DNA of 64,000 nucleotides, from the NCBI RefSeq assembly GCF_056712565.1, contig NZ_CM160072.1. One strand, written 5' to 3'. Made by a program: the position numbers. Below are positions 11,741 through 14,700 of the stretch, piece after piece (the first letter of the stretch is position 1; each line of letters starts with the position of its first letter).

Positions 11741-14700
11741 TCAGCACCAAACCATTTTTCGGAAAGGGCTTGCAAAGTGCCATCTTTTTGCATTTCCGCA
11801 ATTGCATCATTCACCGCTTTCAGCAGGTCTTCATTTCCTTTACGCAGCGCCACGCCAGACTCCTGACGGGAGAATGCTTCACCGGTTACTGCCAGCGTAT
11901 CGTTGGTTTTCTTCACCAGATCCAGCGCCGCCAGACGATCAACGAGGATCGCATCGATACGGCCTACGCGCAGATCCTGATATTTGGTCGGGTCATCATC
12001 ATAGGTACGCACATCCACGCCCTGAACATTCTGACGCAGCCACTCTTCATAGTTGGTGCCCAGACCGACACCCACTTTTTTGCCTTTCAGATCATCAGCC
12101 GTTTTAATGGTGCCTTCGTTACCTTTTTTCACCAGCGCCTGAATACCGGAAATGGTGTACGGGGTAGAGAAATCGTATTTTTTCTTGCGCTCGTCAGAAA
12201 TGGTGACCTGGTTAATCACCACATCAATGCGTTTAGAGTCCAGCGACGCCAGCATACCGTCCCATTTAGTCGGTTTTAGTGACGCCTCAACGCCAAGATG
12301 TTTTGCCAGCTGTTGGGCAAATTCCACTTCAAAACCGGTTAATTTGCCGTCATCCCCCTGAAAACTGAACGGCGGATAAGTTCCTTCCAGCCCTACCAGC
12401 AGCGTGCCGCGCTCTTTGACTTTATTAAGCAGACCTTCATCTGCAAAACTTTTAACGCTCATACCCGCAACCAGCGCCACGGCCATCACACCCATCAATG
12501 CCTGACGTCCCAGATGTGCTAATTTCATATTTACCCCGAATGTTGTTATGTCTGTTTGCAGTGTAGAGCCATTGTTTGTAAACACAAAAACAACTCCGCT
12601 ACATCTTATTCTTATTTAATATATATCAGAAGCAGGTTGGCTGGAGGATTTCTGCACAAGTCCGGTACACGTTTGACGCTGATAGTGTTGATACTTCCGT
12701 AACGCGATGCGGTAATTGTTGGTGCTGGTGGAGGGCAGCCACGGGGCGAGGATTTCATCAAGGAAACCGTCCTGCAGCTGGTCGAGGGAAATATTTTGCT
12801 CGTGTAGATGATTCCCCAAACGGCGCAGACGAACGACATATTCACGCACCGTACCAGGGCTCATTTCAGTTTGCTCAAAAAGAAATTTCTTAAAGCCGAT
12901 AATATCGAAAAAATCACTCTGCGTTTTGCAATGTAAATCACCGCAAAATCGGCACAATGCCGCCCATGATTGTTGTTCCACTTGCCAGCCATTTTCATCA
13001 AGCAGCGTGTCCAGGCGGGAAATCTCGATTTTATTCACTATTTTGCCGTCGCGAACTAAGGTAATGCGATCGAGTAATTTACGGCAATGCGCGCAATGGG
13101 TCTGGCTGTGTTTAAAGTCTTTAAGATAGCGGCTTAATGGCCGTCTTTTCAGGTGCTGCACCATCATTAAGAACTCCTGGTAGTCAAAATTAAAGTGCGG
13201 CATTTACTGACGTTATAACTTACCCAGTTTAGTGCGTAACCGTTTAATAGCCTGGCTGTGTAACTGACTGACCCGCGATTCCCCGACCTCCAGCACCGCG
13301 CCAATCTCTTTGAGATTCAGCTCTTCCTGATAATAGAGGGTTAATACCAGTTTTTCGCGCTCCGGCAACGTTTCGATGGTTTCCATCACCCGCTGGCGCA
13401 GATTACTGTCCAGCAGTTGTTGTAGCGGGTTTTCTCGCTGATGATCATCAGTAACCAGTTCGATGCTATCGCCGTGCTCTTCGCGCCACTCATCGTAGGA
13501 GAAGAGCTGGCTGTTATTGGTGTCGAGCAACATTTGGCGATAATCGGCAATATCGATCCCTAAACGTTCCGCTACCTCAGTTTCCGTGGCGTTGCGGCCA
13601 AGTTCCTGCTCCAGTTGCCCTATTGCCTGTGCCACTTCACGCGCGTTGCGTCGCACGCTGCGCGGCACCCAGTCACGGCTGCGAAGTTCATCCAGCATAG
13701 CGCCACGTATACGCTGCACTGCGTAAGTTGTAAATGCCGTTCCTTGTAGGGCGTCATAGCGTTCGACGGCATTAAGTAACCCAATGCCGCCCGCCTGTAG
13801 CAGATCGTCAAGTTCCACGCTCGCGGGCAGTCGAACCTGCAGGCGCAATGCTTCGTGACGCACCAGCGGGACATAACGCTGCCACAGCGAGTGTTTATCC
13901 ATTACACCTTCAGCGGTATAGAGTGAATTCACGATAAACAGCCCTGCGTTATATGAGTTATCGGCATGATTATCCGTTTCTGCAGGGTTTTTAATCGGGC
14001 GATTAGTGGGTGAAATGAGGGGTTATTTGGGGGTTACCGGTAAATTGCGGGCAGAAAAAAACCCCGCCGTTGGCGGGGAAGCACATTGCTGACAAATTAC
14101 GCTTCATGTTGCCGGATGCGGCGTAACGCCTTATCCGGCCTACAAAAATCTGCAAATTAAATAAATTGCAATTCACCTTGTAGGCCTGATAAGCACAGCG
14201 CACCAGGCAATTTGGCGTTGCCGTCAGTCTCAGTTAATCAGGTTACGGCGATTAACCCTGCAGCAGAGACAGAACCTGCTGCGGTACCTGGTTGGCTTTT
14301 GCCAGCACGGAGTTACCGGCCTGCTGGATAATCTGCGCTTTCGACATGTTGGACACTTCGGTCGCATAGTCGGCGTCCTGAATACGGGACTGCGCTTCAG
14401 ACAGGTTGGTAGTGGTGTTGTTCAGGTTGGTGACTGCGGAATCCAGACGGTTCTGGATAGCACCCAGGGAAGAACGGAATTTGTCGATGGAGCTGATAGC
14501 GTCGTCCAGGGCAGCAAGCGGGTTGGTCGTTGCAGAACCAGCACTGGTAGTCTCAGTAGTGATTTTACCCGCGGAGTTCACATTTACAGCAGTACCAATT
14601 GCTGGAGCATAATCTTTATTGGTATCAGTCGCTGAAGCATACCCGGCAACAGTCACAGAGCCGTTATCCTTGTTAACGCTGTAAGAGACTGTATAGTCGG

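What the first reader, a model, noticed from the sequence alone, without database searches (positions are those of the whole stretch)
14095..14215. REP/BIME cluster between fliC and fliA
Two oppositely oriented REP units lie between the fliC stop and its terminator hairpin. They may stabilise the very abundant fliC mRNA 3-prime end or act as a recombination junction for flagellin allele exchange.
Basis: seen in the sequence. Interest (0 to 1): 0.15.

Follow-up and report, generated by a model that had tools for sequence, protein, structure and literature searches.

The report
BIME-1 repeat forming the FliX sRNA
The two inverted REP hairpins after the E. coli flagellin gene are real, but they are the core of a complete ~155-bp BIME-1 repeat that makes up the already described FliX small RNA; this is known biology and shows no sign of being a recombination junction.

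Summary
A Y-type REP (14111-14143) and an inverted Z1-type REP (14180-14208), separated by a 36-nt AT-rich linker, lie between the fliC stop (14252-14254) and its terminator (14055-14078).

The REPs are the core of a full BIME-1 element of about 154-156 nt (14079 to about 14232). Both of its non-REP arms are also repeated elsewhere in E. coli.

The same stretch in K-12 is annotated as the sRNA gene fliX. It was studied in eLife 2023 (PMC10578931). From that paper's primers, the short active form FliX-S starts in the linker (window 14159). Its validated seed lies in the BIME-1 3' arm (14079-14110).

Citrobacter, Enterobacter and Buttiauxella have only about 18-20 nt between the stop and the terminator, so the element is an insertion. 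About 65% of 5,426 complete E. coli genomes carry it. The rest, including most H4-type strains, lack it.

H4-type alleles with and without the insert differ only from about the last 70-100 nt of fliC to just past the terminator. The exchange points are therefore in flanking conserved DNA, not in the repeat.

Verdict: a real feature, already known in kind and at this site, and of low interest. The modest new points are that the FliX seed is repeat-derived and that the repeat is strain-polymorphic.

The parts
14252..16009 (-). fliC (flagellin, 585 aa, H7-type variable region)
   Evidence: ORF list. The 201-nt variable segment is at least 99% identical in 491 genomes, including O157:H7 and O55:H7 strains.
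14233..14251 (-). Short ancestral 3'UTR spacer between the fliC stop and the repeat insertion
   Evidence: Aligns with the 18-20-nt spacer of empty E. coli alleles and of Citrobacter, Enterobacter and Buttiauxella.
14209..14232 (-). BIME-1 5' arm (TGAGACTGACGGCAACGCCAAAT)
   Evidence: The same arm (consensus GAGACTGATGACAAACGCAAAA) flanks Z1 at pfkA-sbp, at yqjG-yqjF and in other E. coli BIME-1 copies.
14180..14208 (-). Z1-type REP (palindromic unit), CTAC end facing the linker
   Evidence: Pattern match, 0 expected. Folds alone at -12.6 kcal/mol.
14144..14179 (.). L linker of BIME-1 (AT-rich). It contains the FliX-S 5' end (14159). Its IHF-like core is degenerate here (ATTAAATAAATTG against the family's ATTCAATnnATTG).
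   Evidence: Rfam ES036 hit. Linker alignment. IHF-pattern scan. FliX-S primer mapping.
14111..14143 (-). Y-type REP (5' GTAG head on the minus strand), with a 1-nt loop deletion relative to K-12
   Evidence: naRNA4 alignment. K-12 alignment. Hairpin of -17.4 kcal/mol.
14079..14110 (-). BIME-1 3' arm, which is the FliX seed region. The triplet mutated in the published M1 allele (GCA) is at 14088-14090.
   Evidence: M1 primers and gBlocks. Mapping to the window with 1 mismatch. Arm consensus GCGCACTTTGTCAACAATCTGA in other copies. Median of 10 places per genome.
14055..14078 (-). Intrinsic terminator of fliC and 3' end of FliX (CCCCGCCAACGGCGGGG plus U7). It is ancestral and present in empty alleles and in the outgroups.
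   Evidence: The K-12 fliX annotation ends at the T-run.
14055..14248 (-). Homologue of the K-12 sRNA FliX (b4827), 194 nt. FliX-S corresponds to 14055-14159.
   Evidence: K-12 annotation. About 95% identity. Cloning primers map to 14248 and 14159.
13933..14054 (-). fliA promoter/leader region, highly conserved. It forms the conserved right-hand flank of the polymorphic block.
   Evidence: Invariant across filled and empty alleles. A 26-mer from it is exactly conserved in three other genera.

Best explanation
The feature is a complete BIME-1 element (also called RIB or RIP, and resembling a REPIN). Its parts are: 5' arm, Z1 REP, 36-nt L linker, inverted Y REP, 3' arm. It is about 154-156 nt long. 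It inserted in an Escherichia lineage between the short ancestral fliC 3'UTR spacer and the ancestral intrinsic terminator.

It is co-transcribed with fliC and forms nearly the whole body of the 3'UTR-derived, Hfq-binding sRNA FliX.

Mechanism, with the basis for each step:
(a) Shown in K-12 by PMC10578931: the sigma-28-driven fliC transcript is processed to FliX (about 200 nt) and to FliX-S (about 100 nt). Both bind Hfq. A 3-nt seed mutation (M1) abolishes pairing with rpsS. Overexpression lowers fliC mRNA, S10-operon reporters and flagella number.
(b) Shown here from sequence: FliX-S begins inside the AT-rich L linker. It consists of the Y-REP hairpin, a largely unpaired seed and the terminator with its U-tail. 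The seed lies in the BIME-1 3' arm, which is itself a dispersed repeat motif.
(c) Inferred: the linker is the endonuclease entry site. The REP hairpins act as structural end-caps that define and stabilise the processing products, and as a by-product the upstream fliC mRNA. In full-length FliX the two REPs can pair into one long hairpin.

The element is a dispensable, strain-polymorphic add-on. About 35% of E. coli genomes lack it and keep only the terminator.
For: - Anatomy and chance expectation.
- Repeat-family membership of the core: at least 40 places per genome in 5,425 of 5,426 genomes.
- Repeat-family membership of the arms: genomes without the fliC insert still match query positions 8-159 of 162 at other loci with 79-84% identity. 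Alignments to the pfkA-sbp and yqjG-yqjF copies and to E. coli contigs from metagenomes confirm this. The 3'-arm query finds a median of 10 places per genome.
- Identity with FliX: K-12 annotates ncRNA fliX b4827 on the homologous stretch, with about 95% identity. The paper states that FliX-S 'includes one of the REP sequences downstream of fliC'. Primers give the FliX 5' end, the FliX-S 5' end and the M1 seed, and these map to window 14248, 14159 and 14088-14090.
- Predicted folds: the whole BIME folds at -47.2 kcal/mol, z = -5.4. The FliX-S homologue folds as a Y hairpin, an open seed and the terminator.
- Insertion polarity: Citrobacter, Enterobacter and Buttiauxella have 61-63 nt from the stop to the fliA-promoter motif, against 218-219 nt here.
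- Polymorphism: 3,502 of 5,426 genomes cover at least 80% of the spacer. All 9 sampled partial hits have a 163-164-bp spacer with no BIME.
[quoted passage not shown] It also describes BIME-1 as z1 plus y with a conserved L linker that frequently carries an IHF site (PMC3333891).
Against: - There are no expression, Hfq-binding or processing data for this strain. All function is transferred from K-12.
- This copy differs from K-12 in three ways: one base next to the seed (CAGCAAT against CAGCAAC), a 1-nt deletion in the Y loop, and a change in the linker core.
- The role of the REP hairpins in stabilising or delimiting FliX is inference. The nuclease that makes the FliX-S 5' end is not identified in the text I read.
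- Absence from about a third of E. coli genomes shows the element is not required for flagellar function.
- Published chromosomal M1 phenotypes are modest.
Confidence: 0.8

Rival explanations
1. The REP pair mainly acts as a 3'-5' exonuclease barrier that stabilises the abundant fliC mRNA.
For: Stabilisation of upstream mRNA is an established general property of REP hairpins (my own knowledge; listed among REP roles in PMC3333891). The REPs are inside the transcript, upstream of the terminator. They fold stably, at -17.4 and -12.6 kcal/mol alone and -47.2 kcal/mol together.
Against: The transcript already ends in a 7-G-C-pair terminator hairpin. Three other genera and about 35% of E. coli make flagellin with that hairpin alone. 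In K-12 the RNA carrying these REPs lowers fliC mRNA when overexpressed. This rival is not exclusive with the main explanation.
Confidence: 0.3
2. The repeat is a recombination junction at which flagellin (H-antigen) alleles are exchanged.
For: The repeat's presence varies among strains, and megablast similarity to the window stops at the terminator in about 35% of genomes. The same H4-type variable region occurs with the insert in 49 genomes and without it in about 712, so exchange does happen nearby.
Against: H4-filled and H4-empty alleles are almost identical up to fliC nt 954-984. They then differ in a block that spans the last 70-100 nt of fliC, the insert and a few bases beyond the terminator. 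The breakpoints are therefore in flanking conserved DNA. The insert has the same junctions and 93-100% identity across fliC types of 436-670 aa. That fits one insertion carried along by ordinary homologous recombination. The fliA side is near-identical in all alleles.
Confidence: 0.05
3. The element works at the DNA level. As a RIB-type BIME-1 it binds IHF (and perhaps gyrase or Pol I) and insulates or modulates the fliA promoter, which lies directly downstream of the very heavily transcribed fliC.
For: BIME-1 L linkers frequently carry an IHF site (PMC3333891). Ten of 12 aligned BIME-1 copies share ATTCAATnnATTG, one mismatch from WATCAANNNNTTR, at a fixed position. The element sits roughly 100-250 bp upstream of the fliA start codon and is co-directional with it.
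Against: In this strain the conserved C of the core is mutated (ATTAAATAAATTG, two mismatches). No binding data exist for this locus. Empty alleles have the same conserved fliA promoter.
Confidence: 0.12
4. The element is a neutral or selfish repeat insertion with no selected function here, and FliX activity is incidental.
For: Presence/absence polymorphism is typical of BIME-1 (PMC1187871). Thirty-five percent of genomes lack it. The seed is simply the family's terminal arm.
Against: Seed-specific, compensatory-mutation-validated pairing and flagellar phenotypes are reported in K-12. The 11-nt TTTGTCAGCAA is kept in 6 of 7 sampled filled alleles, the 7th differing by one base, while neighbouring positions vary.
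Confidence: 0.2

Closest known systems
FliX / FliX-S sRNA of E. coli K-12 (b4827; Melamed et al., eLife 2023, PMC10578931)
   Same: The position is orthologous, starting 4 nt after the fliC stop and ending at the terminator T-run. Identity is about 95%. Both have the two REPs, the linker, the seed triplet and the terminator.
   Different: This copy has one substitution next to the seed, a 1-nt deletion in the Y-REP loop and a linker substitution. Expression and function were not tested in this H7 strain. The passages I retrieved by term search mention only that FliX-S includes one REP. I found no statement that the whole sRNA, seed included, is a BIME-1.
BIME-1 / RIB / RIP elements of E. coli (Gilson, Bachellier, Hofnung; Boccard and Prentki; Oppenheim)
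   Same: It has one Y and one Z1 unit in inverse orientation, a conserved long L linker and conserved arms. It is about 150 bp, single-copy at the locus, at the 3' end of a transcription unit, and present or absent among strains.
   Different: The IHF-like core is degenerate in this strain. Unlike 6 of the roughly 10 other copies examined, plus a degenerate seventh at pfkA-sbp, it is not bracketed by a duplicated local terminator hairpin.
REPINs (REP doublets forming hairpins, mobilised by RAYT/TnpA_REP)
   Same: Two inverted REPs are predicted to fold into one long hairpin (-47.2 kcal/mol, z = -5.4). The element behaves as an insertion relative to the outgroups.
   Different: No RAYT gene was looked for, and no mobility is shown. 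All filled alleles look like a single old insertion.
REP-derived catalogued RNAs (naRNA4/CssrE, RF02564; ES036/CssrF, RF02751)
   Same: Sequence and structure match the Y-REP and linker parts of these Rfam models.
   Different: Scores are below gathering thresholds (35.8 against 59.5 and 29.7 against 37.6). These are partial repeat matches, not orthologues.

Membership tests
REP / palindromic unit | A 30-40-nt imperfect G+C-rich palindrome with a GTAG/CTAC head, matching the Y or Z consensus | tested here: met
   The Y and Z1 units each fold as hairpins. The consensus strings were recalled from memory, but they were confirmed by alignment to other genomic copies.
REP / palindromic unit | Extragenic and highly repeated in the genome | tested here: met
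   The units lie between fliC and fliA. There are at least 40 places per genome in 5,425 of 5,426 genomes.
BIME-1 | One Y and one Z1 unit in inverse orientation, as a single (not tandem) copy | tested here: met
   Definition taken from PMC3333891 and PMC1187871.
BIME-1 | A conserved long L linker between the units | tested here: met
   The linker aligns with 11 other copies (CTGCAATnTATTGAATTTGCA). Rfam ES036 hit.
BIME-1 | IHF binding site in L (the RIB/RIP property) | tested here: inconclusive
   The family core ATTCAATnnATTG is present in K-12 and in 10 of 12 copies. In this window it is ATTAAATAAATTG, two mismatches to WATCAANNNNTTR. Binding itself cannot be tested with these tools.
BIME-1 | [quoted passage not shown] | tested here: met
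   The indel is 154-156 nt. It is present in about 65% of genomes. Description from PMC1187871.
FliX sRNA | Orthologous fliC 3'UTR locus and sequence, including the seed and the terminator | tested here: met
   There is one substitution adjacent to the seed.
FliX sRNA | Sigma-28-dependent expression, processing from the fliC mRNA, Hfq binding and target repression | not testable with these tools
   Known only for K-12 from PMC10578931, which also reports detection in published EPEC and Salmonella RIL-seq data. The EPEC strain E2348/69 carries the insert (row H120).
REPIN (RAYT-mobilised REP doublet) | Inverted REP doublet that forms a hairpin | tested here: met
REPIN (RAYT-mobilised REP doublet) | Cognate RAYT (tnpA_REP) in the genome and evidence of mobility | not tested
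   This lies outside the window and was not pursued.
Translation-linked REP (REP within 15 nt of a stop codon) | REP starts no more than 15 nt downstream of the stop codon | tested here: not met
   The Z1 REP starts 43 nt after the fliC stop. The criterion is as quoted in PMC12306157.

The most novel reading that the evidence does not exclude
BIME-1 elements may be ready-made sRNA cassettes. Inserted just upstream of an intrinsic terminator, one creates a REP hairpin, a single-stranded arm and a terminator with U-tail, which is the layout of an Hfq-dependent sRNA.

On this reading FliX is one exapted copy whose seed is simply the family's 3' arm. Other copies would then share FliX's seed and could regulate, or compete for, the same targets. 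One example is the K-12 pfkA 3'UTR, which has the same orientation, an identical TTTGTCAGCAA and a following hairpin.

The roughly 35% of E. coli that lack the fliC insertion, including most H4-type strains, would lack this negative feedback on flagellar synthesis.
Probability: 0.2. Interest if true: 0.55.

Novelty: already known. Interest (0 to 1): 0.2.

Why it matters
As stated, the finding is ordinary. REP/BIME elements in 3'UTRs are textbook features of E. coli. This particular pair is already recorded as part of the FliX sRNA.

Two by-products may be useful to sRNA and flagella researchers.

- FliX, including its experimentally validated seed, is entirely a BIME-1 repeat inserted ahead of an older terminator. 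This is a concrete example of a dispersed repeat being turned into a trans-acting regulator. It also warns that reads or chimeras assigned to FliX could be confounded by about 10 similar arms elsewhere in the genome.
- The element is missing from about a third of sequenced E. coli and is largely linked to flagellin type. FliX-mediated feedback described in K-12 therefore cannot be assumed for all strains.

Tried and rejected
- K-12 RefSeq annotation as a test of REP status. The copy available lists no repeat_region features, even at a site where I recalled an annotated REP (5,565-5,669). Absence of a REP label at fliC therefore means nothing.
- My first Y-REP consensus with a 5-nt loop gave 0 matches, because this copy has a 1-nt loop deletion. 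I resolved this by alignment to K-12 and with the tail motif.
- Boccard and Prentki 1993 and Gilson 1991 (PMC413762, PMC333889) are not held. The original RIB lists and arm-motif names could not be checked.
- The composite-query counting of 'H7 variable region plus insert' undercounts. It joined 440 of 491 genomes. One of the 51 unjoined genomes was inspected and is filled. I therefore report 440 as a lower bound.
- My string test mislabelled L155 as empty. Its 319-bp spacer and the alignment show it is filled.
- The RIL-seq supplement was searched for pfkA, yqjG and yqjF as possible FliX-like loci and gave nothing informative.
- The terminator scan did not call the hairpin after the K-12 pfkA BIME-1. 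The 'second FliX-like sRNA' idea therefore stays a lead.
- The scan of species representative genomes returned no Escherichia record. The state in E. albertii and E. fergusonii is unknown.

Full report
**Locus and observation**

The window is 100% identical over this spacer to E. coli ATCC 11775 / DSM 30083. On the minus strand lie fliC (14252-16009, 585 aa) and fliA (13213-13932), with fliD on the plus strand.

Read in the RNA sense, the 319-bp spacer contains these parts in order:
- the fliC stop (14254-14252)
- a 19-nt spacer
- a Z1-type REP (14208-14180)
- a 36-nt AT-rich linker
- an inverted Y-type REP (14143-14111)
- a 32-nt unique-looking stretch
- a strong intrinsic terminator, with a 7-G-C-pair stem at 14078-14062 and a T-run to 14055

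Several results confirm the REPs:
- The Z1 pattern matches with 0 expected by chance.
- The REP tail motif occurs exactly twice in 64 kb, in opposite orientation, against 0.12 expected.
- Rfam's REP-derived models align to the Y unit and to the linker, below gathering score.

**What it is**

Genomes that lack anything at fliC still match positions 8-159 of a 162-nt query (window 14079-14240) at other loci, with 79-84% identity.

I aligned copies from pfkA-sbp, from yqjG-yqjF and from E. coli contigs recovered by a metagenome scan. These show a conserved 5' arm (GAGACTGATGACAAACGCAAAA), Z1, the L linker (CTGCAATnTATTGAATTTGCA), Y, and a 3' arm (ATGAACAAAGCGCACTTTGTCAACAATCTGA).

This matches published descriptions of BIME-1. 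It is one z1 and one y unit with a conserved long L linker that often carries an IHF site (PMC3333891). [quoted passage not shown]

The IHF-like core ATTCAATnnATTG is present in K-12 and in 10 of 12 aligned copies. In this strain it is mutated to ATTAAATAAATTG.

**It is FliX**

K-12 RefSeq annotates the ncRNA fliX (b4827) on the homologous 195 nt. The window is about 95% identical over it.

Melamed et al. (PMC10578931) describe FliX as follows:
- It is a processed, sigma-28-dependent, Hfq-bound sRNA derived from the fliC 3'UTR.
- The full form is about 200 nt and the short form FliX-S is about 100 nt.
- FliX-S 'includes one of the REP sequences downstream of fliC'.
- Overexpression reduces fliC mRNA, flagellin, flagella number and S10-operon reporters.
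- A 3-nt seed mutation (M1) abolishes pairing with rpsS, and a compensatory change restores it.

From their oligonucleotides:
- The FliX 5' end maps to window 14248.
- The FliX-S 5' end maps to 14159, inside the L linker.
- The M1 triplet maps to 14088-14090, inside the BIME-1 3' arm.

The predicted FliX-S homologue has the Y-REP hairpin, a mostly open seed and the terminator. In the full RNA the two REPs can pair into one long hairpin of -47.2 kcal/mol, z = -5.4.

I infer, but did not show, two further points. The AT-rich linker is probably the endonuclease entry point. The REP hairpins probably delimit and protect the products.

**Origin and population distribution**

A 26-mer from the fliA promoter region retrieved Citrobacter, Enterobacter and Buttiauxella loci. 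In the 11 where a flagellin gene end could be located upstream of the motif, the fliC stop is followed by about 18-20 nt and then the terminator. The distance from the stop to the motif is 61-63 nt, against 218-219 nt here and in K-12. The empty state is therefore ancestral and the BIME-1 is an insertion.

Among 5,426 complete E. coli genomes:
- 3,502 cover at least 80% of the spacer.
- Two independent queries imply about 3,514 genomes with the insert.
- All 9 sampled partial hits have a 163-164-bp spacer with no BIME. Their fliC genes encode 349, 487, 491, 492, 497, 548 or 574 aa.
- All sampled full hits have a 318-320-bp spacer. Their fliC genes encode 436, 498, 554, 562 (O166:H15), 568, 585 or 670 aa, and one is a frameshifted copy of 1,787 nt.

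Filled alleles share identical junctions and 93-100% identity. This points to a single insertion.

**The recombination-junction idea**

- The H7 variable segment is in 491 genomes, and at least 440 of them have the insert adjacent. One of the unjoined remainder was checked and is also filled.
- The H4-type variable segment is in 761 genomes, and 49 of them have the insert.
- I compared H4-empty with H4-filled loci. They are nearly identical up to fliC nt 954-984.
- They then differ densely through the last 70-100 nt of fliC, the spacer and the insert. Downstream of the terminator they again differ at only a few scattered positions.

The exchange points therefore lie in the conserved fliC 3' end and in the terminator/fliA-promoter DNA. 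The BIME is a passenger within the exchanged block. The junction hypothesis is not supported.

**The mRNA-stabiliser idea**

This remains a plausible secondary role, but the terminator alone suffices in other genera and in a third of E. coli. The REP is 43 nt from the stop, so it is outside the '15 nt or less' translation-linked class quoted in PMC12306157.

**Novelty**

The REP pair at this site and its inclusion in FliX are published. BIME-1 structure and polymorphism are classical. Hence 'already known' and low interest.

Three points did not turn up in the searchable literature:
- The entire sRNA, including its validated seed, is a BIME-1.
- The 11-nt seed core recurs in other BIME-1 arms. 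One example is the K-12 pfkA 3'UTR, in the same orientation and followed by a hairpin. The arm motif has a median of 10 places per genome.
- About 35% of E. coli genomes lack the element.

These are modest, testable extensions rather than a new kind of system.

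Noticed in passing
L021:1477-1680; L025, L031, L041, L130, L140 (coordinates): At 6 of about 10 other BIME-1 loci, the 150-bp element is bracketed by two direct copies of the local terminator-like hairpin. 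Each copy is 20-36 nt and they abut the two arms. An example is AAACGAGGAGCGTTTCTCCTCGTTT ... AAACGAGGAGTGTTCCTCCTCGTTT at yqjG-yqjF. The pfkA-sbp copy has a degenerate version. The fliC copy has none. This looks like a target duplication of terminators on insertion. I could not check whether it has been described.
   Followed up: partly
L159:1516-1740 (K-12 pfkA-sbp spacer); L020, L022: The K-12 pfkA 3'UTR carries a BIME-1 in the transcribed orientation. Its 3' arm has the same 11-nt TTTGTCAGCAA as the FliX seed and is followed by the hairpin AGGCGGATTTCTTCCGCCTTTTT. This is a FliX-like layout. No ncRNA is annotated there, and the simple terminator scan did not call the hairpin.
   Followed up: partly
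window 13975-14033; L006-L019: The 26-mer CCCCCAAATAACCCCTCATTTCACCC upstream of fliA is exactly conserved in Citrobacter, Enterobacter and Buttiauxella. The whole 13933-14054 stretch is invariant among divergent E. coli fliC alleles. It is presumably the FlhDC/sigma-28 control region of fliA.
   Followed up: no
L011, L012 (JAIJJM010000281.1, JAIJJM010000335.1): Two contigs of a MAG labelled Collinsella sp. carry E. coli fliC-fliA spacers, one filled and one empty. This suggests contamination of the bin by two different E. coli strains.
   Followed up: no
L157, L158 compared with L002, L146: H4-type (349-aa) flagellin genes exist with the BIME-1 in 49 genomes and without it in about 712. The two forms differ by a small replaced block from about fliC nt 954-984 to just past the terminator.
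   Followed up: yes
window 14144-14179: Of the 7 filled alleles aligned, only this lineage has TTTAA instead of TTGAA in the L-linker IHF-like core. It shares a 1-nt shorter Y-REP loop with the 436-aa allele L149. In one search the best place was at least 99% identical to this 112-bp core in 179 records.
   Followed up: partly
L150:2820-4606: One sampled genome (strain 504838) has a frameshifted fliC pseudogene next to an intact BIME-1/FliX region.
   Followed up: no
L005 (NC_000913.3 5000-6600): The copy of the K-12 record served by the tool shows no REP repeat_region features at a site where I recalled one. REP annotation cannot be read from this collection.
   Followed up: yes
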